A stretch of DNA of 64,000 nt, taken from assembly GCA_046563655.1 (NCBI GenBank), contig CM102289.1, positions 2,604,001-2,668,000 of the forward strand. The letters run 5' to 3'. The notes under the pieces were generated by a model that saw nothing but the letters and a program-made list of their open reading frames with translations, did not search any database and was not told the DNA's origin. Positions within the stretch are counted from its first letter, which is position 1. Every line of letters begins with the position of its first letter. The stretch is from Yuukianura sp. NJ FZ-2021. Its lineage: Eukaryota. This document shows, piece by piece, positions 10,441 to 43,700 of this stretch. The position numbers were made by a program, and so were the translations under genes.

Positions 10441-11661
10441 CTATCCAAATAAGGCAGCATAGTCCTCGGGGCAAAAAGCTGAACCTAGTCTCGATTTCAC
10501 GAGCTCTGTCACATTACGAGAATTCATCAACTTTTTAAAACGATCTCTCGCATCCCCTTTTCTTCTGATGTTATTTGTACAGTCAAGACAAGTTTTACTC
10601 TTTTCTGTATTACAATTGTGATTTGCAAAAGATATTTTGATTTGCGATGAAGGAACCTCTAAGTCATTTTCAAATGTTAATTCTGGGTGAGTCCATTCGC
10701 CATCCTCACTGTAAGATAGTGTCCAATCAAATGTCTTAATGTCAATTTCATTGAGTGGGGTTAGACCATCCCCATCATAATTAACGACTGCGAACTTTTT
10801 AGGAGGCGGGGTACTCGATTTTGGGATAAGCATGGCTTGGGAGTACTCGTATTTGTATTTTCTCGTCCCGAGCACATAACCTACGTTGAGTAATCGTGGA
10901 ACAAATTGAATAGGAAACTCAAAAATGATTGAGCCGTAACGATTCTCTTGGACGTATCTTTTGGCTAGTTGAGGTATACCGCTGATCTCGTTTTCGTCGA
11001 GAACAACACCACACCAAACATAGGTCGGCGAATCGCCCGGATCACTAGAAGCCTTTCCGAAAGTAATCTGTTGATCCATGATCTGAATAATTTGAAGTGC
11101 GTTATCAATTGATGTGGCATGCCGCAAAAGTCGTTGTGGATGTAGCTTGATATTAATAGAAAAGCTCGTGTCCGGATTTCGTGCTTCTGGCCTGACCAGT
11201 TCGGAGTCTTTTACAAAGTCCAGTGAAACTGGTGGTTGTGGCCAAGATACAATAGTGGGACCTGCCAGTTCGTTACGAAAGTGTCGGTTCCATAAACTAA
11301 TCACATGCGCAATTTTCATCATTAACCTTTTACTACTTTGTAGTTGCCATTGAGTAGACGCCCATTGTTCGCATAGTTGTAAAATTTGGCCAAGGTAATA
11401 CGTCGGTTGCTGATTTATGTCAATTAGTTGGTTCCAGGGACCAAGAACTGGCCCAGCAATCGCAACGCGTGTCGCTTCTATAATGTTCGAAGCTAAAAGG
11501 AACTTCATTGGTGCGGAAAGTTCAACCTCCGCTTGCTTCATTGTCGTCAACAGTCCTTCTACGGCCATTCTGCCATGTTGGTACGATTTGTGACGTGCAT
11601 CTTCAAGTGTATTTGCACCCAGAATCACTTGAGCAACAATATCCAAACCATCGACTTCCAT
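10441..11661 (-). CDS. Orphan 406-aa protein, intronless CDS; putative ADP-ribosyltransferase-like fold plus His/Cys-rich tail
   Basis: 1221-bp open frame in AT-rich DNA. Likely 5'UTR splice acceptor (tttctag) at ~11704 on the minus strand. Motifs LRHATSIDNALQII, YVWCG, NRYGSIIFEFP, GTRKYKYEY, WTHPE, HNC..CLDC. The ORF is well supported; the function is inference. Confidence 0.75.
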   Translation of the reverse strand: MEVDGLDIVAQVILGANTLEDARHKSYQHGRMAVEGLLTTMKQAEVELSAPMKFLLASNIIEATRVAIAGPVLGPWNQLIDINQQPTYYLGQILQLCEQWASTQWQLQSSKRLMMKIAHVISLWNRHFRNELAGPTIVSWPQPPVSLDFVKDSELVRPEARNPDTSFSINIKLHPQRLLRHATSIDNALQIIQIMDQQITFGKASSDPGDSPTYVWCGVVLDENEISGIPQLAKRYVQENRYGSIIFEFPIQFVPRLLNVGYVLGTRKYKYEYSQAMLIPKSSTPPPKKFAVVNYDGDGLTPLNEIDIKTFDWTLSYSEDGEWTHPELTFENDLEVPSSQIKISFANHNCNTEKSKTCLDCTNNIRRKGDARDRFKKLMNSRNVTELVKSRLGSAFCPEDYAALFG

Positions 11662-12236
11662 TGTTGTTGAGATTATTGTTGAGTCGGCTTTCTAAGTCGT
11701 AATCTAGAAAAAAGTTGCAGTTATTAGCAGTACGTTGTTTCAAACAGGTTGATTTATACCATATGGCATGCGCTACCTTTTAACAAAATGCTTGTTGATC
11801 AATCCAAAAAAAATCCGGCGAAATGTTCGGGTTGAAAAGCTAACTAAAAGCTACCCTAGACAGGATTAAACTTAAGTAATAAAAATAATCAACCTAATTA
11901 ATTTTAATAAAACTAGTTAAGTTTTACCTTTAACTGCGTAGCCACGCGTCAAATGAATGTGAATAAACCACATCGAAATGAAACTTATTTATGCCAACTC
12001 GGCCGTTGTTCCCAACTTGCAAAAACGAAATTCGACATTATCTCGGCAATGGGCAGCAAATGTGACGCAAATAACATAATCTTCCAAGATGAATGATAAT
12101 AAACCGATTGTAAACCGCGCATAAAAAATGACTCTCGAGATAAGGTGGACCTTTTAAAGCTAACTGAGCGTCTCGCCACTCCGGGAATGACGTACCCCAC
12201 CCCCTTTTTTCACCCCCCCCCCCCTTGTTTTTTTCT

Positions 12237-15285: not shown

Positions 15286-17892
15286 ATGAAAACAATTATT
15301 TGGTATTTGTTTTTGACCTTTGACCTCACAATAACTACTCAGTTGGCTGTACAAAGTTGTTGCCCAACTGATCAGTATTATTATAATGGTACTTGTGCAT
15401 TATCATCAGAAAAAGCAAGTTCACACATCATCGATGATCTCTTGTTCAACTCCCAAATTCAGTAAGATTTAAATTATTATTTGATTTGAATAAATTAACT
15501 AACTCAAGTTATTTTTAGTGTAAATGACCGTATCAGTCCGTTTTCATGCAAAGACGGGTCATCTACCATTATCACCTCAAATGTAACAGAAGTCAATGAC
15601 ATTATCTCAAAGGTCACTCAAACAGGATTTGAGGGCTGCATATTCAAGTGAGTGACACAAACTAAGGTGAAGTTTGTAAATTGTGTGACGAAAAGTTTAG
15701 ATTTTTGTAACATACTTTATTTTTTATAACATGTTTTAATTAATATCATATTATTGTTTTTTCAAAGAGATCCAAATGACAAAATTGGTGTTTATGAATG
15801 CGGGAATGCTAAGAGGTGCAGTTTGGATCGCCGTGAACGGAGTCTTTGTTTACCAAAATGTTGTGAATTGGGACAGCTTCTGAGTATTTCTGAAACTAAG
15901 GTGGGGTGTGTTGAGACTGATTTGGAATGGACTCCCGCCATTTTCAAAAATGTTTGGACACCAGTCGACCAACCAACACCGGTCCAATGGAATATTTCTC
16001 CACCGCGCACACTCTGCTCCGAAGGAATTTTATACTTCCAAACGCCGTATCTGCATTACCCAAAAAATTTGTAAAGAAAAAAAATTCTTGTAACCTCATA
16101 CTATTTTTTTTTTTTGATAAATTTTGAAAAGTTGAATTTTTTTCTTTGATAGATTTCGTGTAATGGAGGATGGTAGAGTGATTCACAAAGAGAGATCTCA
16201 TTGGTTAGAAATTCCCGCGGGTGCGTTCTGTCTTGAAGGAATTTTTCCCCAGAACGGGTCAAAGGTCAATGACCTTGTGTATAGATGTTTTGAAACAGAT
16301 ATGGAGGTAACTTCAAAACTGGAAGAATAGAACTTCATGTGAAAATTGAACTGAAAAATTCCATTTTTTTTTGTAGGAACATATCTACGAAGGTTTTTCC
16401 ACTTCAGTTGAGTACAAACTTGGTATCACCGTTGGGTGCTACATTTCCGCTTTCTTTGTTTTGCTGACGATCATCGTGTACTTACTTTTGTGGGAAGTTC
16501 AAAATATCCACGGATGGACACTACTCTGTTCCTTCATTAGTCTATTTTCACTCTATGTTCATCTGGGATTCATGCAGGGCTACCACGTTATTTGGGGAAC
16601 GGATGCAAACAACAGAAATTTTTTCTGCTGGATCATCGGTAAACTTAAAAAAAAATTTCTTTAGAAAATTTAAAATTTTAAAAATTTAAAGTGTTGCTGT
16701 TTTGTAGGTGTTGGGCTTCATTTCTCGTATTTGAGCTTCTTCTCCTGGGCGTCTGTTGTGAACTTTGACCTCTGGTTTACATTCAGGAACATGCGTGCAG
16801 TGCATCAAACTAAACGCAAATGGCGTCGTTTTTTGAAATACGCTGTGGCGGGATTCGGAATTCCTGTTGCCATCACGGGACTGTCCGTTTCATTTGACTT
16901 TGTTTACAGAGGAGATGAGTTGGCTGAATACGTTTTCCCAGATCCGGACTATGGATCAGACAAATGCTTTTTGGCTAGAAACGAATCTCCAATTGCTTAC
17001 TGGCTCGGGCCAATCGGATCTCTCCTGACAATTAACATCATCTTCATCGTTGTCACCATCTCTTCTGTATACAAGGCTCAGAAGACAGCTAGTATTGCAG
17101 TCACCAACAGCTCGCGCAGACACAAGCAATCGTAAGTCATGGTTACTCGTTTCAGTTGTAGTAAGCGAAAGCTACTTTATGCAATAACCTAGTCTGTCTG
17201 TCTGGTTGTCCGTCTGATTCGAATTATGACGGTTTACAGCCAGGCCAAATTTTATCGGGTCGAAAGTAAATTTGTCTTTCGCTACTTGGGTAACGCCCAG
17301 TTATCATCGGATTATAATTTACATAATTTTGAATTGAATTGAGTTAATTAAAATAACAATTGCAGGTTGAAGTTATTTGGGAAGTTGTTGGTGGTGATGG
17401 GCGTTCTGTGGGTTTTTGATATCGTGTCGTTCGTATTCAGTCGTGACTTTGTGCCCTGGTACTTTGCTATCTTCGATGTCATCAACGTGTGCCACGGCGT
17501 TTTCATCTTCATCATCTTTGTCTGCAAGAAGTCTACTCTCCGCTTGCTCCAAGCTAAATACCCACACATTGCTCGTAAAACAAATTCAAAGTTTGGGTTC
17601 AAAATTTTAAAATCCAAACCAAAACTCAAATGGGCAATTTGTGTTGCAGGAATGAGCGCAAACGTAGGAAAGTGGTGGAATTCCAGCAGAGACTGCTGTA
17701 CCTACATCCCTAACCAGCTTCGAACCATTTACACGCGTAAATACTTCACTTAAATTTAATCACTCATTAAATTAACCTAATTGTAATTGTTTAAATTAAG
17801 CTATTATTTGTTTAGAAGGGAGTCGGCGAGTGAGTGCAGAGAGTCGGCGCAGTACTCAATCCGATCGCCCTACCGAACTGTCAACTGTGTAA
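15286..17892 (+). CDS. mthl: Methuselah-like (class B-related) GPCR, 9 coding exons, ~598 aa
   Basis: Exons 15286-15461, 15519-15647, 15768-16046, 16153-16306, 16377-16638, 16708-17131, 17366-17574, 17650-17736, 17816-17892 in frame. Signal peptide, SCCP/KCCE Cys-rich ectodomain, QNIHG, FFSWASVVNFDLW, PDYGSDKCF, KLLVVMGVLW, GVFIFIIFVCK. Confidence 0.9.
17156..17303 (+). mobile_element. Short Helentron/DINE-1-like element in a Mth-like intron
   Basis: agcgaaag...ctttcgct inverted subterminal repeat, gtctgtctgtct microsatellite, 3' hairpin tgggtaacgccca. Confidence 0.6.
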
Positions 17893-20514: not shown

Positions 20515-21052
20515 ATTAACTAATTTGTAGCTGTTGCTGTACGAATGAAAACCTTGTTTTGTTGCCCTAACTTTTCCCTTTTAAACAAAAAAAAACAGAT
20601 GAAGGTGAAAAATATTTTCCTAAGTAGATGAATTAGTTTTAAGATAATTCCACTCAACACATTATTTAACATATTTATTAGCATATATAAATATTACATC
20701 GTATTTCTTTGAATTTGTGTAAAAATAAATAATGTTGGCTCATAAATTTTAGCCGAAAAATTTAATGCTGCCTAACTATAAAACACGGAAATCCTAGAAA
20801 TTACATTTTTAGGTCACAAGTTGACCTCAAAGTGGAAGGACAGTATTTCGTTAAAGTTGTAGGGCTTGCATTTTGTGTTTTTTTTTTGTGGTTGCAAAAC
20901 CAAGTTAAACGAGAGAGACTTACGGTGGTGATTGTGGTCAATAGAACCAATTACGCTCAATTAAGAGCAACTAATGCCGCTACTAATTATACACAATATC
21001 ACACCTTCAAAAATTTTCAGTTTCGGAGTTTCCGCTTCGAAGCACATCAAAA

Positions 21053-21847
21053 ATGTTCGTGTTGCGTTTGTGTTGCAGTTCGTGTTTCCCATCTACGACG
21101 GAAGTTGTTGGTGCGCAGGTCAAAGGAGCGCTAAGAGTAGTGGACAATGTTTCACAAGTCAAAGGTGAAATGGAGCCGCTGTTGGCTAGGGCTGAAGAAA
21201 ACGTAATTGCAATTGGGAGCGACCTTGCACAAAATGCAGCAATAGTTGGCACCAGCGCAGTTGAAAATGTTGCAAATGCTGGCAACACAGCAGTGGCACA
21301 TGCAGAAGCGGCTGGAAATATGGCCGTTGGCTATGCAAAAAATAGTGGAGCTGCAGCAGTGGAAGGTGCCCAATCAACTGCAAGTTCTGTTGAAGAAAAC
21401 ATTTCAAATTTGGGTGCAGAGCTGAAACACAATTTTGGCGACATGCAGCACACGACTGCCCAGAGTATCCATGACGCTCAAGCGACATTCCAGGGGATTT
21501 CCAAATTGGAATCTGATGCAGAAGCTACTGTGAAAGCTGTGAAGGATGAGCTTAGTGGACAGGCGGAAGCTGCAAATTTGGCGACAGAAGTTCAAGAAAC
21601 GTTGACTGACGCTACGGATGTTGCCAGAGACGTGGCTGCTGCTGGTAGTGATCTTCTCAGTTTGGCGGAAGAATTTGAGATAACAGTTTCCGAGGCTTCT
21701 GAGGATGTTTCTGAAATCGCGTCGTCATTTACTGAACATGCAATCGATACTGTATCAGCAGTCACGCCGGAGGCTGCAACTGATGCTGTTCAGAATGCCA
21801 TGACAACGCTAGCCTCCAGTGTTCCGACATCAGTACCTGGAATGTAA
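21053..21847 (+). CDS. Ala-rich acidic protein with 11-mer repeats (LEA3/perilipin-like architecture), 264 aa, intronless
   Basis: 795-bp ORF with coding-like composition, tandem 11-mers at 21257-21388 and an N-terminal CCSSC. Confidence 0.8.
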   Translation: MFVLRLCCSSCFPSTTEVVGAQVKGALRVVDNVSQVKGEMEPLLARAEENVIAIGSDLAQNAAIVGTSAVENVANAGNTAVAHAEAAGNMAVGYAKNSGAAAVEGAQSTASSVEENISNLGAELKHNFGDMQHTTAQSIHDAQATFQGISKLESDAEATVKAVKDELSGQAEAANLATEVQETLTDATDVARDVAAAGSDLLSLAEEFEITVSEASEDVSEIASSFTEHAIDTVSAVTPEAATDAVQNAMTTLASSVPTSVPGM

Positions 21848-25338: not shown

Positions 25339-25813
25339 TGCTCGTAAAACGCGGAAAGTTGAAGCCATCAAGTTTTGTTTTCCAAAAGTTTTATTTCAAT
25401 TACATACAACTACGTTTTTTGAGAAAGTCGATTTTCGTGGCTCATTAGGTTTTATTTTTGTTTTAAATCACTCCCAGTAGTAAGGCTTCAGCCTAAGTAG
25501 GTGGACAAATGAGCAGTTTTGGAATAAGTTTCAAGGGTGGCAAACGCTGAAATTCAAGCTTTCCTGTTTCTCCAATTTCAATTAGAGCTGTGACTATTTC
25601 TTTGATATGGTGACAGTCATGGTAACAAGAAATACGATCAGTTTCTTTCCTTCCTTCTGACGCAGAAGTTCTTTTCACCGGCCTATAAAATAGCCTTGGA
25701 TTCAAGACGTAGATATCAGTCGTCTTCTTGGAATTAAAGTTCCAAATCCAGAGCGAAACACTGAAAAAATACTAAAGTACTAAAAAGTCTTCATTTTAAC
25801 ACAAAAACCGACA

Positions 25814-26513
25814 ATGGTTTTCTCAATCCGAAACGTGTTTTTAGTAGTAATTTTTGTGACATTGGCCGACTTGATTGTAGGAGCAAAACCAATTTTGGAC
25901 CCGGAAGAAATTGAGGCCCTACTCAACTCGGAGGATTACGGTAATTCAACTGAGTAAATAAATTCTGGGCAGTGCCTATGTGAGACTTTGTTTTTTGAAA
26001 AATTTTTAATTTTTAAAATAATGTAAGTTGTGAATTTGTGTTTCTGTTAATAGAGGAAGACGCAGAATTCATTCCCGAGTATATTTGGAAGCGCGGAGGT
26101 TTCTGGGCGTCGCATCCAAGCGACTTCAGTCCGATGCGGAGACCGCCGACTGTGCCGTCCGGCAGCAGCCGAAGCACGAAGCGATCCGAAGACAATCCTT
26201 ACCATCCGCTTCCTCGCAGTGTCAACATCAGTCAGAAAAATCTACGAAGCCAGCAACATGCGGCGACTAATGACGACATGGAGGCTTTGCTTCAAAGTAA
26301 AAATATTGAAATAATATAATTATAATAATATTAATATAATTATAAAAACCAAAATTTTATAACTTATTTTAATTGTATATTAAACTAATTTCTTCATGAT
26401 TATCAGGTCTTCGGGATAAGCGACAAAGTCCAGGAAGTTTTCTTCTGATGAAACTCGGGCGAATGAAAAACGGACAAGCAGATCCCGCTACCCGAGGAAG
26501 GCGCCGAGCTTAA
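25814..26513 (+). CDS. Secreted prepropeptide, candidate neuropeptide precursor, 3 exons, 158 aa
   Basis: Exons 25814-25940, 26054-26296, 26407-26513 in frame. Signal peptide MVFSIRNVFLVVIFVTLADLIVGA, acidic spacer, three KR sites, RR, GR and GRRR. TATA box upstream, AATAAA downstream. Confidence 0.82.
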
Positions 26514-27052
26514 ACTCTCAAAATCTAACAAAAACGAACGAAACTCTAACAAAACACTATTATTTTCCCAATGTTAAACACTTTAATGTAAAATAAAATT
26601 ATGATATGTCCCATTTAATTCTCCGCGGCATCTTCAGTTGTATTTGAATTAAATAAAACGCTTGAAATGATGCAAGATAGACAACTCAAAATTTACAGAG
26701 CCAAAAAATTCTATCGGCGGTAAATAGTTCAACATGAATTGGTACAAATAAATATACTTTTTTGTTTTGCATATTAAAACATAATTTTTTGTTTGAATAA
26801 AGTATAGATAGCTAGGCATCTTTGCGTCGTCTCCTCGAATCTTTCCGAAGAAAGAGAAAGTGCTCTGTAGTGTTCTACCTTCTGGGCAGGACAGATCCAG
26901 TTTGGACCAGAAGCTTAAACATTTTCAAACAAGAAGTTGTTATAATATAGCTAGGCTAGCTTAAACTTTTACTAAACAAAACAAAGGGCAACACAATTTA
27001 AAACGTAGAGTACTTGTTGTAATTTATATTAAAACCTCATAAACCACCAAAA

Positions 27053-30000
27053 ATGGGTCTACAAACTTTCGTTTTTGTGGTTCTCGTACTGCTAACACAA
27101 GGTGAGACTTTCACACCAAAAAATGAATTTAAGAAACTAAAAATGACAATTTCGGCTAAATTTGTTTTTCAATTTTGTGCAATCTAGACCCGGTGAAGGC
27201 AAATCCAGACGCGAAATTACTGTATGACGAGTTGCTTACGGACTACAATCGGCTCATACGACCCATTGCCAATATGTCTGAGAAGTTAACGGTGAAGCTA
27301 GGGCTCAAGCTATCACAATTAATCGACGTGGTGAGAATTTATACCGGTCAATTAAAAAAATCATCAATTCTTGAAGTTTTTTCAGCAAGCTAGCGAGAGG
27401 TACAGAAGTTTTTGCTTAGTTTAAATCCATACTTTCTCCGTCTTTTTCTTTCATTTGATCTGCCGTGTGTATCGATCTTCTACTCTTGTTGTCTACCTTT
27501 TCAAAGTTATTTTCTCGACTCACGGAGCTTCTGAAGACAATGATCTTTTGAGTGCAAACACCCCATGAAATAAAAACACATCAATTTTTGATAACCCGCA
27601 AACAAAGATGCGACTGCGGTTGAGCAGAAAGGAAAGTTTTTTTTAGATTGAAGAAAGTTCCACTATGGCATGGGCCCTAACTTTAAACTTTGACAAATTT
27701 TCTCAACAAAAGTAACTTTCTTTGTTTTTTTTTAGCGTAAATTGCTTAGATTTAAAGCATTTGCGATAGTTTTAGTCACAATTTTGTTCATCTTTTAATT
27801 TTGGAAAAGAATTTGACTCGATTTTTTTTTGCTTAGAATTTGAAGAGTCAAGTAATGACGACTAACGTCTGGGTTGAACAAGTAAGTCCCGATAATGGAG
27901 AATTTGAAATTTATAATTCAATATGCAATTTGAAACTAAAATTTTGGATTTTTTTTTAGAAATGGATGGACTACAAAATGAGTTGGGACCCAAATGAATT
28001 CGGCGGTGTGGAGCAACTTTACGTTCCTTCCGAACACATTTGGCTTCCAGATATCGTATTGTTTAACAAGTAAGAACTTAAACTCAATTAAAATATTTAA
28101 TTTCATTTTGACTAATTTCATAAAATTATGTAATAACGAAATTACCATAATTTTAGTGCTGATGGAAACTATGAAGTCACCCTCATGACAAAGGCTACAC
28201 TACACTACACGGGTGAAGTCGTTTGGAAACCACCAGCCATTTACAAGTCTTCTTGCGAAGTACATCAGCAACTACCATTTTTTAATATCCATAAATTATA
28301 AATTATTTTATTAAATATTACAAACTATGTTATAAATTGATATACTTTATTTTCACTTTTTAGATTAATGTGGAATGGTTTCCATTTGACGAACAAAGTT
28401 GTACAATGAAGTTCGGTTCTTGGACGTACGATGGCTTCCAGGTCAGATATCAACTGTTTGCACTTCGACACTGTGGCATTGCGCACACTTGATTTTATGG
28501 TGACATTTTTTCAGGTTGACCTGCAACATACTGACCAAACTGCTGGAAGCAACTTGGTCCAAGTCGGAATTGACTTGAAGGAGTTCTACTTGTCAGTGGA
28601 GTGGGACATTCTGGAAGTACCCGCTAAACGGAACGAAGAATACTACCCGGGCATCGACGAACCGTTTCCAGGTAAAGTGTTTTGGCGGGAGTCCAGCATA
28701 AATTCACAAATATGAGTAAAATTCGCAATTAGCATTCAATACTTTTGGTACTTGCATTTTTTGAGGTACAGGAGTCCAAAAATCACCAAATTGTGCTTAC
28801 TATGTTCCTCACGCATCCGACTTGGTCAAACTTTTGGCCAATTTGTCTAAAATTTTCAAACCCTACAATGTATTTCTTTATTTGGTAAAGATTGCTACTT
28901 TTCGTAAAAGGAAAATGATAAACTGATATTTAGTCTTTTCAAATTCAAAATTAAAGTAAATCCGGAAGACAAAATTCTCAAAATACGAAATTTACAAAGA
29001 TGTACTGAAGAGCAGACCGATTTGTCATTGGGATATTTGAAATTCTAGAGCCCATTTCTGTTCTGTCAGTTTTTGTCCATTTTGTGCAAAAGTGCAATCA
29101 AAATGAAAGTGATTTCTTAGTCTCGGCAAAGGAATTTCGATCATTTTGATCACTTCCTATTTGGAAAGAGAAGTCGTACTCAAGTAGTAGGCAGGAAAAA
29201 AGAGAAAGTAGCGAGGGAATAGAATCCTTCCTTTGACAAAAACAAAAAATGTCTCCGGAATTGGCGTAATTACACCCATTTGTTACTTTTATGGGAAAAA
29301 CATGCTCAGCCTAACCCAAACTCCAATTTACGCTTAAAACCACTACTACTATGGTATCTTAGGTAGAAAGCCTAACCTAATCTAACATAGCCTGTTTCAC
29401 TTAAGTGCGTGTCCTGAAAGTCTGTGACCACCGAAACGGATCTTTCCAGGACAAGAAAATGTCTTTCAATATATTTGTCTCCTCCGCCTGTCTTTCCATT
29501 TGTCCCGTGTCACTCACAATTTGTTTCCGGTGTATCCTGTACATGTTAGGTCTTCTAACCACCAGCCAAATTGAAACTGGCGAAATCGAATCTAATCAGT
29601 TTGTGGTTGTTGATTTGCAGACATCACGTTCAACTTGACAATGCGACGGAAAACGTTATTCTACACTGTCAATTTGATTATCCCTTGCGTCGGAATTTCG
29701 TTTCTCACGGTGCTCGTTTTCTACCTGCCTTCTGATTCTGGCGAAAAAGTAACCCTCTGCATTTCCATTTTGCTATCACTCACTGTGTTTTTCTTGTTGT
29801 TGGCCGAAATTATTCCACCGACGTCGCTGGCTGTCCCACTTTTGGGCAAGTATCTCCTGTTTACTATGGTGTTGGTGACGCTATCAATCTGTGTCACCGT
29901 GGGCGTTCTCAATGTACATTTTCGGTAAGATGGTCAATACGTTCAGAAGTGTGGACATATTTCTGTAAAGTTAGTCTAACTGTATGATACAGTACAACTC

Positions 30001-33000
30001 CAATTTGGGAAACTCACTCTGATTGGTTCGTTGGTTTAAAAGAATTTCGCGCTTTCTGAGTAGAGTGCATTATTGGAGAAATTATACTGGCTTCCCACAT
30101 GCTCTGATCTCATTCATATGCATTTTTTTCATATTACCAAAAAAAGACTGTTTGATGCGACATTTGTCCGTCTGTCTGACGGTCTGTCACATTTTTTTTA
30201 AACCGATTTTCAAATTTTGTGATCCGACGAATTTTTTTTTATATTTGCTTTTAGTTCTCCATCGACACACAAGATGTCACCTTGGGTGAAGAAAGTGTTT
30301 TTAGATTTCATGCCGCGAATGCTTTGGATGCAGCGACCGGACTACCACCCACGCTATGCCTTTGAAGGCGACTTCCAGACGAGTGACCCTGACAGTGGCA
30401 TGGGATTCGGGTAAGTCTAAGACTTTACGACCCCATTTCTGTTTTTACTCAGCATGTAACCGTTGTTAGGTTAGCCTAACCTAGCCTTATTTGTTGTGAA
30501 ATGACTGTTCCAGATCTCCCCGGAGAGACAGTTACTTTGACAGTAGCCCACGAACCGAGTCAAGTGTGGATCATTCGAGACAAGTGAAGTCTTTCTCCGA
30601 AGAGGCAGGAGGTAACACAACTTTTCCCGAGAGCATTGCGTGACTCACCAAGTTAGGTTTTTATGTTAGGCGTTTGTTAGGGTTGTGCGAATGGCTGCTG
30701 ATTTGAAACTGATGAAAAAGCGCCAATTTCCTAGGAAATAGAAAAATTGGTTCCAATTAATCAATTTGAGAGCTACCGCTTCTAACTTTTGAAACTTTCT
30801 TTTCCCATTACCATAATCTCGTTTCGAAAAACCTAATTTCCAATGCAAATTGTACACAGGACTCAGCCACTCAAGTCACACTGGACGATTTTCACCAGAA
30901 GTTAGCTTCGTGGCTGAAGTTGAGTTGAGAGTCGTTAGTGATAATGGGCTAGGGGCAAATCGCTTAGGTTCAAGCGATTCGGGTTAAACTTTTCAAACTT
31001 TGAAATTGGAGCGCTGAAACTTTTACCGCTAAATTTCAAAATTAAAAATTTCTAATTAACGCCTGCGCGCCTGGAACAGATTCAATACTATCAAATGGAG
31101 AAAACAAAAAGAAAAAAAAACAACTTTTCGTGAAGTTTGTGAAATACTTTATTTTAGTACTGACATAGCTGCAAAAAAATTCCAAAAATTTTTTAAAAGA
31201 TTATTTTTTAAAGGTTTCAAAAAGATCGTTTTTTAAAACTTTTTTATAGGACGACAATACAGTCCGGAAATATTGGCTGCATTGCAGAGTGTACAATACA
31301 TTGCTCAGCATATCAAAGATGAAGACAAGGATAATGAGGTGAGGTTTTTTGAACTATTTTTTGACTTTTTTAAAGTTTTTACTTTCTCCCGCCTTCACTT
31401 TTTTTGAAGTGAAGTGAAAACTTGGATAATCGAGTTACACAGAGTTACAAGTACTGAAACTCAAATGAAAACGCTTTTTACACTCGAATGTATACATTAT
31501 AGTTAAGTTATTCATTAGCACATCAAAGTGAAAATCTCTTTGATATTGGCGCCAAATTAATACAAAGTTTTCATTGCTAAAATTGAATCACTAGAGCTTT
31601 TCTATCTTTTTCATGCTAAAAATTTCCAACAAGCAACTTCTTCACATGTAAATTCACGCGTGTCCAAAAATTTGTGGTGGTATATTTGAACAAATTCAAA
31701 CACAACTACGGCAGCTCTGGTTCATTTTCACCCAATACAACAAATGAGCACTTCAACTTGAAACTTCAAGTGCTTCAAGTAGTATCTTTTATCGGAAAAT
31801 TTTTCTCCGTAATTTATTTTTCTGTGCACTTTTATGCCTTTCGCAGAACGAAACACACAAACCTCGCTAGAAAGTGGCAGAAAAGAACAGTTACCGTAGA
31901 AACAGTGTTGTTAAGACCACAATGGAATAAATTCAGTAGAATTGAACAGACTTTCTCCATTCTCCTTGTCGCTTAATGAGCTCAGAACATGACCGCTACG
32001 GCGTGAAAGTTCAAAAAATACATTGGCGCCTTTCACTTTTTTCTTTCTCCAATTCACATGTCCAAATCTCTTGTACTTTTCTATTTTTGTTTCTTTCGAA
32101 TTATGTTTCGAACCAATTCCAGCAGGAAATGAGCACAAGAGGAAGCGTCGAACTTACTTCAGACGTGATCCATTTTCCCGCTCGTCACGCTTTCAATCCT
32201 AAAGTAACTTCTCGATTTTCAAAACTTTTTTTTTCCTTTTCAAAACATGTATTAACTCTAACTCTAACTTTTCCCGGAGAGCACTAGCCACTTCCAGTTA
32301 AAATTAACGCTTATGCTACAATATTTACTTTAGATGGACTTCAAACTAACTTTTTCTCGCCAAAAGTTACTGTGTTACCGAAAGTCATAGTACTACTACG
32401 CATTAACTAAAGAAAAAAGTATCCTGAGTAAAAAAAAAGTTTGGTTTTGGAAGTTAGCGTATATGGCGGTGTCACTGTGAAAGATTTAACGTGAAGGGTG
32501 GCGGCACTGAATTCATAAATTTTAGTCTCAAGCTCCACTTCAGATTGGAAACTTTTTTTTTCCAAATTCGAATTTTGGAATATCAAGGAATCGAGGGAAA
32601 GCATAGTTTGAGCTCATAAATGAATGCCACTTAAAAAGTTTTCAGCATTTGTCAAATCGCGGGAAAACTTTTCGGCCAGAAACTGTTCGAATTTTGCTAG
32701 TCACCAAACTGATTGCAATTCATCTTAACTTTAGTTACACAACTTTTAGTTAGTTGACAACTACTTTGTCAAGTGGAGAAGTTTATACGCGGGAATTGAA
32801 TAATGGTTCAAATGAACTTTTGGCTCAACTGACGTACCACTCGCATACGATGCTTCATCCGCTCAACAAAATCGGCTTTCAAGTTTTTGATTTAAGTCTT
32901 CTTTTGACAGGAAGTTGGCTCACATTGTTCTAACACCAAAAACGTAGAAAGCTAGACACTACATTCTAGTTCAGAGTTTTAGTGAGACTTTTTTGGATTG

Positions 33001-35923
33001 CTCTAGTCGTAAGAATGCTTTCAGAGACCCATTATGGACTCTGTCCTACTTTATGTCACTTCCAGATGAGAATTTTCATACGCTGGAGACCATGCGGTGG
33101 AACTCGAGAAGAGGTTTAGTATTTCATGTGCGCACATAAATGTCTTCCTGTCGAGAATTGAGCGAAAAGGAAAAGCATTTCAAAATTTTGGAACTAAAAT
33201 TGAAAAGTGGATCTCCTCATGCTATGCTCATGCGCAGTCGAACTTTTGAAAAAGCTTTTATTTGTTATTAATGCAAAGAGCGGATTTCAAAAAATATGGG
33301 TTTGGAGTTGGAATGGGAAGTGGAAATAAACATGACAAGACAAAGGACGCGTGGCGCGGGAACATTTGACAGCCAAGATCATCTTCAACTGTGGTTCTTA
33401 AACATTTCAAAAAATTTCATACATTTCTAAAACTAAATTTTTTTTACTTTCGTTTTTTAAAACCTTCCACTTCAGCATTTATGAGCCTCCAATTATAAAA
33501 AGATACTTAGGACTGGGTATGTTTTGCAGCAAGGCTCTAAACTTCACTTCAGTTTTTTTAAAAAAGGAACAAAATGAAAAGTTGCTCACCAGTAAATAAA
33601 TTTTGTTAGATTTTTACTTCAGTTCAAACTTTTGACACACAAAAAGTACTAAAATTGATCTTCTTTGTTCTTGACTTGACACATTTCATTGTCTCTTGGG
33701 GGTCACTTCCAGGTCACAAAATTTTTTCTGGACCAGTGTCACTTTTGGTCATTTTCTAGAGTCCAACGTTGCTCAGGGCGAACATTGCGAGTCATTTTAT
33801 GGTCCAATCGTAAGATTCATTGCTGAGTATTAAACGGTCGTTTGAAAAGACTAACATCGGCAAAGGCAAGAGAAACAGGAGAAAGTGGACTTGAAATTTT
33901 TCAAATCCGAGTTTTATGAACATTTTATGCTGAGTCGAAATACTTTTCACAAAACTCAAAAAAAGTAGAACAAAAGTCTGAACCAAAAGTTTTTCTTTAT
34001 TCTCGTAAAAATCTGGATGTGAAGGGGCGCGTCGTCATCTTAATTTTTATTCTTTTCTTACAGTTTTCCAAGTCTCCAGGCCACAACAAAGAATTTCAGT
34101 TTCTGAAAAAAAAGTGCAGTTTGAAAAAATTGTTTAAAAGTTCTAAAACTGTTTCAATGGAGACATTTTCCATAACATTTTACAACCCCAAAAGTGACAT
34201 TCAGAGAAAGTTTTAAGGAAGACAAGGAAGTTGCTGGAAGGAAAAGGAACTGAGAGCAGAGACTTTTAATATTACAATTTTGAAAGGACTATTATTAGGA
34301 CAAGGAGAGGAAGGAATAACATGGATGGAGGGGCTCTTCCGGAGAAAAGTCCCGGGTAATATAAAGAAGAAAAAGTGGCGGGTAATATAAAGAGGGAGAA
34401 AGTCTTGGAGTTGACGTTGGGAGTCTGTATGTTAGGTTAGGGAGTTTCTGTGTTAGGTTATGGAAGCTGTACTGCTTTTACTGGAGTCTGCTTGGTTCCG
34501 CTGGAGTAAGCTTTTGGAACTGTAACACTTTCTTTCCTTTGGTTCATGATGCCGCGACGGCTCCTGTATTATTACAACGGATTTCAAACTTTTCCGCCTC
34601 CGCAGACTCCACACCAAGGACCAAAAACCGACGCCCGTCTTCAATTTAAGTTTTATGTGTCCTATTTTTCACTGTGACGTTTTAGTGTTCCCCTTGCTTA
34701 TTATATCCAGCCTCGGGTAGCACGACACTCTCGGACGGAAACTTCCGAACCTGTAGAAGGTCGGGTATTTTCGGGAATTTGCTTAGTTTTGATAAGTTTG
34801 GGCTCTCAAAATGTCCATGAAATTTTGGTTCTTCTTTATCAAGAGATCGGTACTGCAGTTTCCGTTCAAAACCGTCCTGTGCGGTTGCTCAAACATACTT
34901 TCACCGTCCTACCCCGCCTTCCCGCCAAATACTTTCTCTGGTCCTCAAGCCCCTAAGCTTAATGACATTACAAGGAACCGCGGCGGTGCTCAAGTCTTCA
35001 AGCTTAAGGAAAACGCCATCCTTCACTTTTTTGACAGGCGGGGATTGGGTTCTGGAAGTAATTTTCCAGAAGCCTCAAAAGTTTCATTTCGCATGAACCA
35101 CACGGATGTGTTTTACGGTTGACACTGCAATTCCTGAATGCTCATGGACGGAAACTGATGGACGGAAGTGCCAAGAAGCTTTGCCGACGTACAATCCTTA
35201 GGTACAAAAAACTTGGGCTTGCCTATGTACGCCCCTAAGTTTCCGTCCACGAGTGTCCGGTTTACAGTAGGACTTAAACGGTGACTTTGTTGCCGTGAGA
35301 GTTTACACAAACTTCAATTTGGAAGTTCCTGGACATCCTGGAAGAGAAGTACTTAAAGGCTCGTGTGTTCAGATGATAAGTCTATGTTACGTTAGTGCTT
35401 CTGCCACTAACCTAACTTAAGTTCAAAGTAAATAGAATGACAAATAAAGTGTTTAATGGACCTATTGATATTTCCTTGTAGCAAAATATTGACTTAAGGG
35501 AAAGAGCAACAAAGGTTCCCCCATGAACCCCCCATTGACGTTTCCATTACTCTTCCAACTTGTCAACAAACGACTCAAGCACTTTGTCTCATCCATGAGT
35601 GCTTCTCATTCCTCCACATTTGTTTTGTTTTTGAAACTTTTTTTGAAAATCTCGCTTTTGGTCATGTTTTTGAAAGGTTTGTTTTCTCTTTTCAGGTGAT
35701 TGAAGATTGGAAGTTTGTGGCAATGGTGCTGGACAGAATGTTTCTGTACATTTTTACAATGGCTTGCATCATGGGAACTTGTGGAATCATTCTCCAGGCA
35801 CCTTCACTCTACGACACACGCAAGCCCATTGATGAGAAAATGACGACAATCATCTTCGCAAAAATTATGAGCAGAGGCCATGCTGTGCCAATTGACACTG
35901 AACCAACAACCTTACCAGGGTAG
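27053..35923 (+). CDS. nAChRalpha8/beta2: Nicotinic acetylcholine receptor subunit, alpha8/Drosophila beta2 type, no vicinal Cys in loop C, 12 exons, ~519 aa
   Basis: Exons 27053-27101, 27188-27330, 27837-27881, 27960-28069, 28157-28259, 28364-28441, 28515-28671, 29621-29924, 30255-30410, 30514-30611, 31250-31338, 35696-35923 in frame. Cys-loop [65 protein letters not shown]. Confidence 0.9.
30160..30232 (+). mobile_element. DINE-1/HINE-like fragment
   Basis: tgtccgtctgtctgacggtctgtcac microsatellite followed by aaccgattttcaaa core. Confidence 0.35.
35124..35270. mobile_element. Small MITE-like inverted-repeat element
   Basis: Left ...ctcatggacggaaact and right agtttccgtccacgag... are inverted copies. 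The atggacgga motif is shared with the element at 42911. Confidence 0.45.
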
Positions 35924-40700: not shown

Positions 40701-43700
40701 TGACACGAAGGCTTTGCTGTTGACCGTTGCATGTGACATGCAAGTCCATTTAACACAAACCGTCACTTTTTTCTTTCCTTACGTCCACAGTTATACAGTT
40801 TTAAAGCTAAAGGCAAAATCTTGACCTGCGGACATGACTTTCTCTTTGACTGAGAAATATGCTGACGGAAAAGAAAATTTTAACAACCGTCAGTCAAGTC
40901 AGCGCTTAAAGTGTCAACTTCAGCTTCTCAGTGAAATCTGGATGCTAGAAGGGGCAATGTGAGAAAAATAAGTTAAACTAGGTTAGGCTAAAAACACGCT
41001 TAACTTTTGACCTTAAATTTCATTCGCCACACAAAGAAGCACTGGAACAAGGTAGTACATTAATTAAATCCCACTTGAAATGGATTCTACTCAACCTCTT
41101 TTGTTGTTTGAGGGTGTAGATTTACACAATAGATCTGAAAAACCTACGCTAACTTTGAGAAAACCTAACCTCAATCTAAAGAATTTTGTTATTACAGCAT
41201 TCCCTACACTGTTCCTATCATCATCATGTTTCTTCTTCTTCTTTTTCTATCTTTCGGACGTTGTTCCTTTTGATCTTTTTTGGAGTGGAGATCAAGTGGT
41301 CTCATGTGTTCTAACACAAAGTACGTGATCAATAGATTTCATTTGAAATTTTAGCAGCGCTCGGCTCTAATCCCACTTCCTATATTTACTCTTAAAGCAG
41401 AAGACACAAGAAATCACTTAGGAGGTTCTTAGCAAAAGGCGCTTCTTCTGCTAGCCTGAGGGAGTCGCTACAAATTTCACCCCGGGAAACTTCTGCACAT
41501 GCGCACAATTGCTTGATTTTTATGCACTGCAGCAGTTCTCCAGAATGTTCATGTTCAGCATAAAGTTAAAGCAAACTAAACTGAATGGCGCGAAAATCAA
41601 GAGAAAGTCCAAATTAGGTTACATGTCGAAAAAAAATTGTTAAAAAAAGTCGAAACGTGACCGGCAACAGTCAAAATGGCGACGCAAATAAAACTACCTA
41701 ACTTCTGAGCATTTCGTCTATTTTGACGAGCCAGAAATTGTTTCATCGGCTTTTGCTAGACAAAAACTTACTCGGAGACTTAGACTGACAAAAAAAATTT
41801 GACCGTTTTGTGTAGCACAGTTCTGGTTATTTTAAGGCTAGTTTTGCGTTACTATGGTTACATACCTGCAGCTTCTGCTGCCGACGGACCAACGGCTGGA
41901 CAGTTGAAGACGTGTTCCGGAACGCGCATGAACAGGAACTTCGGTATGTGCTGGATGAAGAGGCGCCTGACCCATGGCGCCATCTTGTGAGTCGACGGTT
42001 TTCGGTAATGGACGTTCAGTACGATCGTGGTGACGAGTACAGAGAGACTCACGAGCGACATTGAGAACAGGAGGTACTTGCCCAGGAGCGGAACGGCCAA
42101 CGATGTAGACGGGATGTACTCCAGCACGAGCAGAAGGAACATTGTCTGCGACAAAATGATCGAAATGACAAGGACGATCTTCTCTCCAGAGTCTGCCGGT
42201 AGGTAGAAGACGAGAATCGTCAAGTAGGAAATTCCCACCGTTGGCACAATGAGGTTCACAGTGTAAAAGAGAGTCTTCCGACGTAAGGTGATGTTAAAAA
42301 ATATATCTGCAAATGTTACGGTAAAAGTTAGGTTTTTGTAAAACTTTTGTAAAAAGTTCAAAATCCAGGTTTCTTTAGTCCAAATCCGCTCTTTGTCCTA
42401 CTTTTTATTGTTCCCACTCCTGTTTTGAATTTTCCCGCTTTTTTTGAAACTTCGTTTCTTTGTAGCACTTTGTTTAATTTAAAAGGAATTAGAGTTAATA
42501 AAAATGGAATGGAGTGGAGCTCAATAAAAAGAAACTCGGCAGACGTAAAAAGTTGAATTTCATTTTGAAAAAGAAAGTTTTCCCTCTCCGCACGTCAAAC
42601 ACTTTTAATCAATTTCCTATTCATTCTCGACTCCTTTTATGTTCCTACCACTTTCTTTTCTGAACAACTTTTCAACAAAGTAAACTTTTTCAATGGTTTT
42701 GTTTACATATTTCATTCGACTTGGAGATGCTTAGGTACTTTCAAGTTTTCTTCCAGAGAAAGCACAAGGTAAAACTTTCAGTTTTAAACTTTTCATAACA
42801 TTGTTTTATAAATTCGCAAAACGAAGCAAAGTGGGTTATTGAAATAAAAAGTTAAAGTCTCCTGACATTTTCAATGTGGAAAAACAAAATGACTAAGTTT
42901 CAAATCTTTCCTGGACTTTCATGGACGGACAGATAGAATGGACGAACATGCTAAGCCGTCATGGACGATACTTCTGTTCACCGGACTTTTCTGGACGGAA
43001 TCTAACTTCCTAACTAAAAAAAATCGCTGAGTGAAACTCGCTGAAACTTTTCATCTGACATACTTATTTGCAAACTTGCCAAAAATATTTAGTTCCCATG
43101 CCTGTAATGTTAACGAAATCAATATTTTAAGGCGCTTTGTTGCTAAATATTTATTTACTAATTTCCAATGCTTTTAATGTTAAGTTGGTAAATATTTCAA
43201 CCATTTTCTGGATGTATTATATTTATTCAAACATTTCGCTGGTTTTGAGTAAATATTTTTGGCTGTCCTGCTTATTTGTTGCCACAAGCATACTCGTCTA
43301 TGTACCCGTCCATGGTTTTTTATCAAATCGTCCATCCGTCCATGACCGTCCAGTTTTAATTCAGTTATGTATACAGTGCTTACCAATATAAGGTTCCATA
43401 CAACAGGGATAATATTTTTCATGGCGTTCGGCCGGAACTGACAGAATGTCCCACTCTACCGACGGATAGTACTCTCTCAGATCAATTCCAATTTTGACCA
43501 TGTCGTCTCCAGCCTCTTGGTTGATGTGCTTGAGGTCAATCTAAAGTTAAAAAACAATTTTTTGTTGAAAACTTGAACATGACACGTCTGATTTTGAAAA
43601 TTTTTGCCTAAACTCATTTTTATATTTCTTAGATGAACTCAAAGCATCTCTAAAAAACTCGGGTTACAGCGATGGTGGGAAAAGGAGGTTGCCTAAATTT

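What the first reader, a model, noticed from the sequence alone, without database searches (positions are those of the whole stretch)
25814..26513. Candidate novel neuropeptide precursor (predicted pQSPGSFLLMKL-amide)
Seen after splicing three exons: signal peptide | KPILDPEEIEALLNSEDYEEDAEFIPEYIW-KR-GGFWASHPSDFSPM-RR-PPTVPSGSSRST-KR-SEDNPYHPLPR...DDMEALLQSLRD-KR-QSPGSFLLMKLG-R-MKNGQADPATRG-RRR-A. Known: KR cleavage, N-terminal Gln cyclisation and Gly-basic amidation are hallmarks of mature neuropeptides. The peptide at 26424-26459 would be blocked at both ends. It matches no arthropod family I recognise, with only loose echoes of tachykinin and natalisin. The last exon is absent from the ORF track, so automated annotation could miss it.
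Basis: partly seen in the sequence, partly recalled or inferred. Interest (0 to 1): 0.75.

Follow-up and report, generated by a model that had tools for sequence, protein, structure and literature searches.

The report
Springtail-only candidate peptide-hormone precursor gene
This is a real small three-exon gene for a secreted, cleavable peptide precursor that belongs to an unnamed protein family found so far only in springtails, and it is a credible but unproven new signalling-peptide gene.

Summary
Exons 25814-25940, 26054-26296 and 26407-26513 (+) splice through GT-AG introns into a 158-aa protein with a hydrophobic leader, a TATA box, an initiator and a polyA signal.

No Pfam or PDB match was found. 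Relatives do exist: 10 phmmer hits and 14 profile hits. Every named one is an "uncharacterized" springtail protein from Folsomia candida, two Orchesella species or Allacma fusca.

In 8 of 8 full-length sequences, four basic pairs are kept, and three conserved islands lie beside them.

All 8 sequences keep the same 11-residue register and an L-x-x-[KR]-L-G motif. In the other six, Ser or Thr follows the Gly, so the amide end is lineage-specific.

The best-conserved island is a different one, the F[WF]xxHPSD[YF]xP[ML]RRP block. None of 13 known peptide-family motifs is present in any of the 8 sequences.

No RNA or peptide evidence could be obtained. The best reading is an undescribed prohormone family restricted to springtails (confidence 0.6).

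The parts
25684..25720 (+). Core promoter: TATAAA at 25684 and initiator-like TCAGT at 25716
   Evidence: Pattern positions. The 32-nt spacing is read from those coordinates. Promoter function is inferred.
25814..25940 (+). Exon 1: ATG, a hydrophobic leader (about residues 1-24, 25814-25885) and the start of the acidic spacer. It ends in phase 1.
   Evidence: The maximum 12-aa Kyte-Doolittle mean is 2.82. The signal-peptide cleavage point was not computed.
25941..26053 (+). Intron 1 (113 nt, GT-AG, GC 0.26)
   Evidence: L001 has an intron at the same position and phase.
26054..26296 (+). Exon 2: spacer, then conserved islands 1 and 2 with three basic pairs
   Evidence: This exon was the phmmer query that found the family.
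26089..26094 (+). Basic pair 1 (KR, residues 55-56)
   Evidence: KR in 8 of 8 full-length sequences
26095..26136 (+). Conserved island 1: GGFWASHPSDFSPM (residues 57-70)
   Evidence: 10/14 identical to L001. Mean identity to the 7 other sequences is 0.57, the highest of any peptide segment. In alignment A2, which includes the fragments, K53, F55, H59, S61 and D62 are at least 90% conserved.
26137..26145 (+). Invariant RR followed by Pro (residues 71-73). It is probably part of the conserved core rather than a cleavage site.
   Evidence: RR in 8/8. R, R and P are invariant columns in A1 and A3. In A2, R and R are invariant and P is at least 90% conserved. Poor cleavage before Pro is recalled knowledge, not tested here.
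26179..26184 (+). Basic pair 3 (KR, residues 85-86)
   Evidence: KR or KK in 8/8
26185..26253 (+). Conserved island 2: SEDNPYHPLPRSVNISQKNLRSQ (residues 87-109)
   Evidence: 20/23 identical to L001. YHP is near-invariant family-wide.
26297..26406 (+). Intron 2 (110 nt, GT-AG, GC 0.11)
   Evidence: L001 has an intron at the same phase-1 position. Several database fragments end in read-through at this point.
26407..26513 (+). Exon 3, including the TAA stop at 26511-26513
26418..26423 (+). Basic pair 4 (KR, residues 128-129), with Arg three residues upstream (R-x-K-R)
   Evidence: KR or KK in 8/8. The upstream Arg column is identical in all 8 rows of the alignment.
26424..26459 (+).
   Evidence: 11/12 identical to L001. 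The register of 11 residues plus Gly and the L-x-x-[KR]-L-G motif are kept in 8/8.
26460..26462 (+). Single Arg after the Gly (residue 142). This is the proposed cleavage and amidation site.
   Evidence: R in the window and L001 (RK in L001). S or T in the other 6 of 8.
26463..26510 (+).
   Evidence: G-RRR is also present at the end of L001, and the tail is otherwise poorly conserved at 7/12.
26592..26597 (+). First AATAAA after the stop
   Evidence: Its use is inferred.

Best explanation
**What it is.** The locus encodes a 158-aa prepropeptide. It belongs to an undescribed family that, so far, is seen only in springtails.

**Inferred pathway.**
1. The hydrophobic leader takes the protein into the secretory pathway.
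2. Subtilisin-type prohormone convertases cut at the conserved basic pairs: KR55-56, KR85-86 and R-x-KR128-129.
3. A carboxypeptidase trims the basic residues.

**Expected products.** Three conserved products result.
- (1) A peptide starting GGFWASHPSDFSPM. It probably runs on through the invariant RR-Pro to the next KR, giving a 28-mer.
- (2) A peptide carrying NPYHPLPRSVNISQKNLRSQ.
- (3) A C-terminal peptide starting with Gln.

**The third product in this lineage.** Here the Gly is followed by Arg (RK in the nearest relative). The product could therefore end as pyroGlu-SPGSFLLMKL-amide, with MKNGQADPATR-amide released from the G-RRR tail. In other springtails the same 11-residue core is extended at its C-terminus and is not amidated at that Gly.

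**Proposed function.** The products most likely act as extracellular signals, as neuropeptides or peptide hormones, on an unknown receptor.

**Shown versus inferred.** Shown here: the gene structure, the family, the conservation pattern, and the absence of known motifs or folds. Inferred: secretion, cleavage, modifications, cell type and function.
For: - **Gene model and promoter:**
- **Family:**
  - phmmer with exon 2 found 10 proteins at E<=1e-3 in 1.84 billion, the best at 8e-22.
  - Profile searches found 14 proteins among 1159 candidates and 14 among 2319 candidates.
  - Every named hit is a springtail protein.
- **Conserved structure:** L001 has the same three-exon, phase-1 structure.
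- **Conservation pattern:**
  - Four basic pairs are basic-basic in 8/8 sequences.
  - Window-to-L001 identity is 10/14, 20/23 and 11/12 in the three islands.
  - It is 3/12 in the linker, 8/24 in the leader and 9/18 in spacer 2.
  - By tblastx, only the exons are conserved.
- **Secretion and disorder:**
  - All 8 sequences have a hydrophobic N-terminus and no Cys after residue 30.
  - The Atlas model of the F. candida member has pLDDT 0.45 and pTM 0.16, so it is disordered.
- **Feature-space lead:** the nearest named Atlas clusters are mostly neuropeptide precursors of unrelated families (DH31, CAPA, PBAN, allatostatin, tachykinin, PDH, FMRFamide, galanin). This was 9 of 10 listed rows in each, at scores of 0.84-0.90. 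These are leads only.
- **Splicing of homologues (inference):**
  - P0013 is a full-length uninterrupted homologue on a 1003-nt JGI contig.
  - The F. candida protein is also recorded from Logan.
  - Relatives show intron read-through at both positions (P0019 and P0020). This suggests that spliced transcripts of homologues exist.
Against: - No RNA run could be listed for this locus, and there are no peptide data. Expression, tissue and processing are all untested.
- Taken alone, the number of dibasic sites in this sequence is not beyond chance (p about 0.07).
- The Gly-basic site that would create the short amide is present in only 2 of 8 sequences.
- In six of eight sequences site 4 is KK, which from recalled processing rules is a weaker site than KR.
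- The strongest conservation runs straight across RR-Pro. At least one 'site' is therefore probably not a site.
- Atlas scores are at or below 0.90, a level that shuffled proteins reach 4-10% of the time.
- No receptor is known, and no relative was found outside springtails.
Confidence: 0.6

Rival explanations
1. It is a secreted, furin-processed peptide precursor with a non-neural role. One example would be a proline/arginine-rich host-defence (antimicrobial) peptide or another gland, gut or haemolymph product.
For: The stretch from RR71 to the PR of island 2 is rich in Pro and Arg (read). From memory, insect proline-rich antimicrobial peptides such as drosocin and apidaecin are also released at dibasic sites. 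The resemblance is recalled, not tested. Nothing here shows neuronal expression.
Against: The best-conserved island (GGFWASHPSDFSPM) carries an Asp and no basic residue, which is not the make-up of a cationic antimicrobial peptide. The whole protein has only 13 Pro in 158 residues. Ten or more near-invariant residues are kept between two springtail orders. That is more than is usual for fast-evolving immune peptides, a statement resting on general knowledge.
Confidence: 0.15
2. It is a highly diverged member of a known arthropod peptide family: tachykinin-related peptide, natalisin, sulfakinin or a PRXamide.
For: Short look-alikes exist. FSPMR in the window and YNPMR in relatives fit FxPxR. 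SLGMR in Orchesella resembles FLGMR. D-Y-x-x-M-R recalls the sulfakinin core. All of these were read. Tachykinin clusters appear among the Atlas neighbours at scores of 0.84-0.87.
Against: The defining C-terminal FxxxR-amide (PMC4730192, passages read) requires a Gly-basic signal. [FYW]xxxR-G-basic occurs in 0 of 8 sequences, and so do the PRX-amide, R[FYW]-amide, FGL-amide, kinin, MIP, SIF, EFL, orcokinin, proctolin, allatotropin and PDF motifs. There is no Pfam match at E<=10. Derst et al. 2016 report separate TKRP, natalisin and SK precursors in springtails (PMC4770511, section 6 read).
Confidence: 0.07
3. It is a secreted disordered protein that works uncleaved or as a helper of the secretory pathway (granin-like or convertase-binding). 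On this reading the basic pairs and RR-Pro are conserved as binding elements.
For: The invariant RR-Pro lies inside the most conserved block. The protein is predicted to be disordered. There is no evidence of cleavage.
Against: Conservation falls into three short islands, each starting at or a few residues after a basic pair, and these are separated by fast-changing acidic spacers. That is the pattern of multi-peptide precursors. The window lineage has gained canonical G-RK and G-RRR ends.
Confidence: 0.15
4. It is not a functional gene, only chance ORFs.
For: No RNA evidence was obtained for this locus. The last exon is only a 37-codon open frame.
Against: Homologues occur in at least four named springtail species and in several unnamed contigs. 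The intron positions are the same, and conservation is restricted to the exons.
Confidence: 0.02

Closest known systems
Uncharacterized springtail proteins: Folsomia candida LOC110846357 (XP_021948772.1 / OXA61856.1), Orchesella cincta ODM97021.1 and ODM91302.1, Orchesella dallaii CAL8069491.1, Allacma fusca CAG7640701.1 and CAG7826834.1
   Same: They belong to the same family. Profile E-values run from 1e-24 to 1e-48. They share a hydrophobic leader, four basic pairs, three conserved islands and the same peptide register.
   Different: They are only 29-36% identical to the window protein over the aligned residues. Ser or Thr follows the C-terminal Gly instead of Arg, so their predicted C-terminal products are longer and not amidated there. 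None carries a functional name.
Tachykinin-related peptide and natalisin precursors (FxGxR-amide / FxxxR-amide; PMC4730192)
   Same: They are secreted precursors cut at basic sites. There are short local look-alikes (FSPMR, and SLGMR in Orchesella).
   Different: No FxxxR-Gly-basic unit occurs in any of the 8 sequences. There are no repeated paracopies and no Pfam Tachykinin or Lem_TRP match. Springtails have separate TKRP and natalisin genes (PMC4770511).
Multi-peptide prohormones in general, for example the arthropod CAPA/pyrokinin precursor. From memory only, also the vertebrate neurotensin/neuromedin N precursor, whose active peptide keeps an uncleaved Arg-Arg-Pro.
   Same: It works like them: a leader, acidic spacers, conserved short peptides bounded by basic pairs, and optional pyroGlu and amide ends. 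RR-Pro kept inside a conserved core would parallel neurotensin.
   Different: There is no sequence relationship. The neurotensin comparison is an analogy from memory and was not tested here.

Membership tests
Neuropeptide / peptide-hormone precursor (general class) | N-terminal signal peptide | tested here: met
   All 8 full-length sequences have a hydrophobic N-terminal stretch, with a maximum 12-aa Kyte-Doolittle mean of 2.1-3.3. No dedicated signal-peptide predictor was available.
Neuropeptide / peptide-hormone precursor (general class) | Conserved short peptides bounded by conserved basic cleavage sites and separated by variable spacers | tested here: met
   Four basic pairs are kept in 8/8. 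The islands are 10/14, 20/23 and 11/12 identical to L001, against 3/12 in the linker and 9/18 in spacer 2.
Neuropeptide / peptide-hormone precursor (general class) | Amidation signal (Gly followed by basic residues) at a conserved peptide end | tested here: inconclusive
   It is present after the C-terminal core in the window (G-R) and L001 (G-RK), and at G-RRR in both. It is absent at that Gly in the other 6 of 8.
Neuropeptide / peptide-hormone precursor (general class) | Expression in neurons or endocrine cells, and detection of the mature peptides | not testable with these tools
   No RNA run was listed, no genome is held, and no peptidomic data were found.
Tachykinin-related peptides / natalisin | C-terminal FxxxR-amide (FxGxR-amide, FxPxR-amide or FWxxR-amide), that is FxxxR-Gly-basic in the precursor, usually in several copies (PMC4730192) | tested here: not met
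   The pattern [FYW]...RG[KR] occurs in 0 of 8 sequences.
Sulfakinin and other RF/RY-amides | R-[FYW]-Gly-basic (motif recalled) | tested here: not met
   0 of 8
PRX-amides (pyrokinin, CAPA, ETH) | PR[LVIM]-Gly-basic (motif recalled) | tested here: not met
   0 of 8
Cysteine-containing hormones (AST-C, CCAP, CCHamide, insulin-like, ITP, trissin, bursicon, EH and others) | Conserved cysteines forming disulfides (recalled) | tested here: not met
   There are 0 Cys after residue 30 in all 8 sequences. The whole-protein Cys count is 0 in 6 and 1 in 2.
Any Pfam family | A match at or above Pfam's gathering score | tested here: not met
   The 4 window queries gave 0 families at E<=10. The 7 homologues gave only two chance-level rows, at E 0.82 and 0.2, both far below cut-off.
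Proline-rich antimicrobial peptides | A cationic, Pro/Arg-rich mature peptide that is induced by infection (recalled) | tested here: inconclusive
   The region after RR71 is locally rich in Pro and Arg, but the most conserved island is acidic to neutral. The whole protein has 13 Pro and 15 Arg in 158 residues. Induction is not testable here.

The most novel reading that the evidence does not exclude
Springtails own a private peptide-signalling system. One small precursor yields up to three conserved ligands. These are an RR-Pro-containing peptide, an NPYHP-PR peptide and a Gln-started L-x-x-[KR]-L-Gly peptide. No counterpart was found in insects or crustaceans. In the window's lineage, a single Ser/Thr-to-Arg change after the Gly turned a longer peptide into a short pyroGlu/amide-blocked 11-mer. 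That would be a natural example of a new mature neuropeptide form arising through a new cleavage site.
Probability: 0.45. Interest if true: 0.6.

Novelty: new variant of a known kind. Interest (0 to 1): 0.45.

Why it matters
Springtails are a key outgroup for insect neuroendocrinology. The one broad survey of their neuropeptides (Derst et al. 2016) looked only for families already known elsewhere.

This would be a conserved, lineage-restricted precursor with clear candidate ligands. It would add a new peptide family to pair with orphan receptors. It would also show how amidated ends arise. Folsomia candida is a standard soil-ecotoxicology test animal, so the family would offer a springtail-specific physiological marker or target there.

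The homologues already sit in public databases, labelled only as uncharacterized proteins. The gain is therefore an annotation and a set of testable peptide predictions, not a new mechanism.

Tried and rejected
- my first exon-3 coordinates were off by ten bases and gave a frame with a stop. This was corrected.
- no whole genome is held for this window. Paralogues elsewhere in the genome and synteny therefore could not be checked.
- a word-index search with the 100-aa stop-to-stop ORF, limited to proteins of 55-175 aa, found nothing. The nearest relatives share too few exact words with the query.
- no RNA holder was listed, so read laying could not be used.
- there is no second copy in the window. 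The best other tblastn hit has E = 2.4.
- no Pfam or PDB relative was found.
- the 13-sequence alignment was too diverse for the metagenome scan. It was repeated with five closer sequences.
- **L003:** this is a GC-rich, bacteria-like contig in which only a short PYHPLPR string matches. It was dropped as a chance hit and is not counted as a homologue.
- L001 shows no nAChR neighbour, so it gives no synteny information.
- the scan's earlier notes hold nothing on this locus or family.
- **Literature string searches:**
  - Searches used 12 family motifs. They returned one hit, an unrelated chemistry paper.
  - One search used 6 accession or locus names and returned 0 papers.
  - Searches turned up no paper describing a new springtail peptide family.
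- **Derst et al. 2016:** Additional files 1 and 2, which hold the precursor sequences and logos, are old .doc files and could not be read. The readable xls holds only contig names. I therefore cannot fully exclude that a member of this family is listed there under some name. The motif test makes that unlikely.
- **Galanin/spexin and allatotropin look-alikes:** I considered these for the C-terminal peptide and rejected them. They were memory-based resemblances with register shifts and were not tested.

Full report
**Observation.**
- An ATG at 25814 opens exon 1 (25814-25940). It encodes a hydrophobic leader and the start of an acidic stretch.
- A GTAATT donor and a TTAATAG acceptor bound a 113-nt intron.
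- Exon 2 (26054-26296) encodes 80 full codons.
- A GTAAAA donor and a TTATCAG acceptor bound a 110-nt intron.
- Exon 3 (26407-26513) ends in TAA. My first attempt at exon 3 was off by ten bases.
- The spliced CDS is 477 nt, giving 158 aa.
- Exon GC is 0.42/0.54/0.51 against intron GC of 0.26/0.11.
- TATAAA at 25684 lies 32 nt before a TCAGT at 25716, and AATAAA follows the stop at 26592.
- The stretch 26424-26459 encodes QSPGSFLLMKLG, preceded by KR and followed by R, as claimed.

**Chance.** Taken alone, the sequence does not prove a prohormone.
- The mature part is 15.7% Lys plus Arg.
- Its 5 dibasic runs are reached by 7.2% of 20,000 shuffles.
- Its 2 Gly-basic sites are reached by 30% of shuffles.
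- The case therefore rests on comparison with relatives.

**Relatives.**
- Pfam gives nothing for the window pieces at E<=10.
- A word-index search with the 100-aa open frame found nothing.
- A full phmmer pass with exon 2 over 1.84 billion representatives found 10 proteins at E<=1e-3. The best was 8e-22 at 59% identity.
- Profile searches with alignments A1 and A2 found 14 proteins among 1159 candidates and 14 among 2319 candidates (E<=10).
- Of the hits, 12 have E<=7e-16. The other two are weak rows, P0019 and P0020. On reading, P0019 is a read-through fragment of a further homologue carrying its C-terminal exon, and P0020 is an N-terminal fragment of the F. candida protein.
- Every hit that carries a name is a springtail protein:
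  - Folsomia candida LOC110846357 (XP_021948772.1)
  - Orchesella cincta ODM97021.1 and ODM91302.1
  - Orchesella dallaii CAL8069491.1
  - Allacma fusca CAG7640701.1 and CAG7826834.1
- These species belong to the orders Entomobryomorpha and Symphypleona. All are labelled uncharacterized or hypothetical.
- The remaining hits are unnamed Logan or JGI contigs.
- No hit is named from any other arthropod.
- Pfam on 7 homologues and a profile search of PDB sequences gave nothing.

**Closest relative.**
- A metagenome scan matched 57 stretches, of which 3 passed tblastn.
- L001 is the nearest relative.
- L002 is an Orchesella-like copy.
- L003 is a GC-rich, bacteria-like chance match that I dropped.
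- In L001 I could build the same gene: three exons, GT-AG introns of 84 and 82 nt at the same two phase-1 positions, and 164 aa.
- A tblastx of window 20-32 kb against the loci aligns only the three exons.
- Several database fragments (P0004-P0007, P0010, P0012, P0018-P0020) stop or drift exactly at these intron positions. This is what unspliced genomic ORF calls would look like.

**Conservation pattern.** The eight full-length sequences are the window, the L001 model, P0014, P0015, P0016, P0013, P0009 and P0017.

| Basic site (window residues) | State in the 8 sequences |
|---|---|
| KR55-56 | KR in 8/8 |
| RR71-72 | RR in 8/8 |
| KR85-86 | KR or KK in 8/8 |
| KR128-129 | KR or KK in 8/8, with an Arg three residues upstream in all 8 |

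| Segment | Identity, window to L001 |
|---|---|
| Island 1 (GGFWASHPSDFSPM) | 10/14 |
| Island 2 (SEDNPYHPLPRSVNISQKNLRSQ) | 20/23 |
| Leader | 8/24 |
| Linker | 3/12 |
| Second spacer | 9/18 |

- Family-wide, the strongest block is F[WF]xxHPSD[YF]xP[ML]RRP, followed by YHPxP.
- All 8 sequences have a hydrophobic N-terminus and no Cys after residue 30.
- The Atlas model of the F. candida member is disordered, with pLDDT 0.45.
- Short conserved islands beside conserved basic pairs, separated by fast-changing acidic spacers, are the signature of a multi-peptide precursor.

- Its N-terminal basic pair and its length are conserved. In all 8 sequences exactly 11 residues separate site 4 from a conserved Gly, and the last six columns read L-[ILV]-[FYM]-[KR]-L-G.
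- The first residue is Gln in 6 of 8 and His in the two Allacma proteins.
- The residue after Gly is Arg only in the window and L001. In L001 it is a canonical G-RK. In the other six it is Ser or Thr.
- The short pyroGlu/amide 11-mer is therefore plausible for this lineage only. In other springtails the same core would be extended at its C-terminus.
- The window and L001 also share a terminal G-RRR.
The RR and the following Pro are invariant or nearly so, and they lie inside the best-conserved block. From recalled knowledge of convertase specificity, and the neurotensin precedent, Arg-Arg-Pro is usually left intact.

**Known families.**
- The defining tachykinin/natalisin end, FxxxR-amide, is described in PMC4730192 (passages read). 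It needs FxxxR-Gly-basic, which occurs in 0 of 8 sequences.
- The same is true of twelve other family motifs that I wrote from memory: FxGxR in a peptide context, PRX-amide, R[FYW]-amide, FGL-amide, kinin, MIP, SIF, EFL, orcokinin, proctolin, allatotropin and PDF.
- The only FxGxR string in the set is FEGGR in a spacer of P0016.
- The lack of cysteines excludes the disulfide-bonded hormones.
- Derst et al. 2016 report ordinary TKRP, natalisin and sulfakinin precursors in springtails. They searched only for known families (PMC4770511: outline, section 6, passages and the xls file read).
- Their sequence files are .doc files that I could not open.
- Paper searches with 12 family motifs and 6 accession names found nothing relevant.
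- In both Atlas calls, 9 of the 10 listed named clusters were neuropeptide precursors of unrelated families, at scores of 0.84-0.90. This is a lead that the protein 'looks like' a prohormone. It is not evidence of kinship.

**Verdict.**
- This is a real gene and a member of an unnamed family that is apparently restricted to springtails.
- Its conservation pattern fits a secreted precursor that is cleaved into several peptides.
- I hold the neuropeptide or peptide-hormone reading at about 0.6.
- The main rivals are a non-neural secreted peptide such as a host-defence product (0.15), an uncleaved or helper protein (0.15), and a diverged member of a known family (0.07).
- No RNA, tissue or peptide evidence could be obtained here.
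- The finding is a sound, testable annotation of moderate interest, not a surprise in kind.

Noticed in passing
window 27054-35920 (+), and about 41861-42397 (-): About 540 nt downstream of the stop, a cys-loop receptor gene begins. Its exons match Pfam Neur_chan_LBD and Neur_chan_memb (for example 29614-29925, E 1.8e-37), and it looks like a nicotinic acetylcholine receptor subunit. A second exon of this kind lies on the minus strand (41861-42397, E 1.2e-44).
   Followed up: partly
window 16674-17132 (+): An open frame matches the secretin-family GPCR domain 7tm_2 (E 7e-11), about 9 kb upstream of the precursor gene. No link to the precursor is shown.
   Followed up: no
window 20987-21844 (+): A 286-aa open frame has weak, sub-threshold matches to Apolipoprotein A1/A4/E and apolipophorin-III (E 4e-5 and 9e-5, both below Pfam's cut-offs).
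   Followed up: no
window 1298-1858 (+): An exon matches the histone deacetylase domain (E 6e-48).
   Followed up: no
window 52906-55398 (-) and 10444-11691 (-): Two long open frames, of 831 aa and 416 aa, have no Pfam match at E<=0.001.
   Followed up: no
protein P0012 (Logan contig): One divergent family member carries an insertion in the linker. The insertion contains a short peptide bounded by KK and G-RR, ending ...SSFGI-Gly. That is an extra, canonically amidated unit absent from the other members, and it suggests the precursor can gain new peptides.
   Followed up: no
Allacma fusca proteins P0009 and P0017: Allacma has two copies of the family, on different contigs. In both, the Pro-Arg of island 2 reads Ala-Lys instead. 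Orchesella cincta also has two records, one full-length and one fragment.
   Followed up: no
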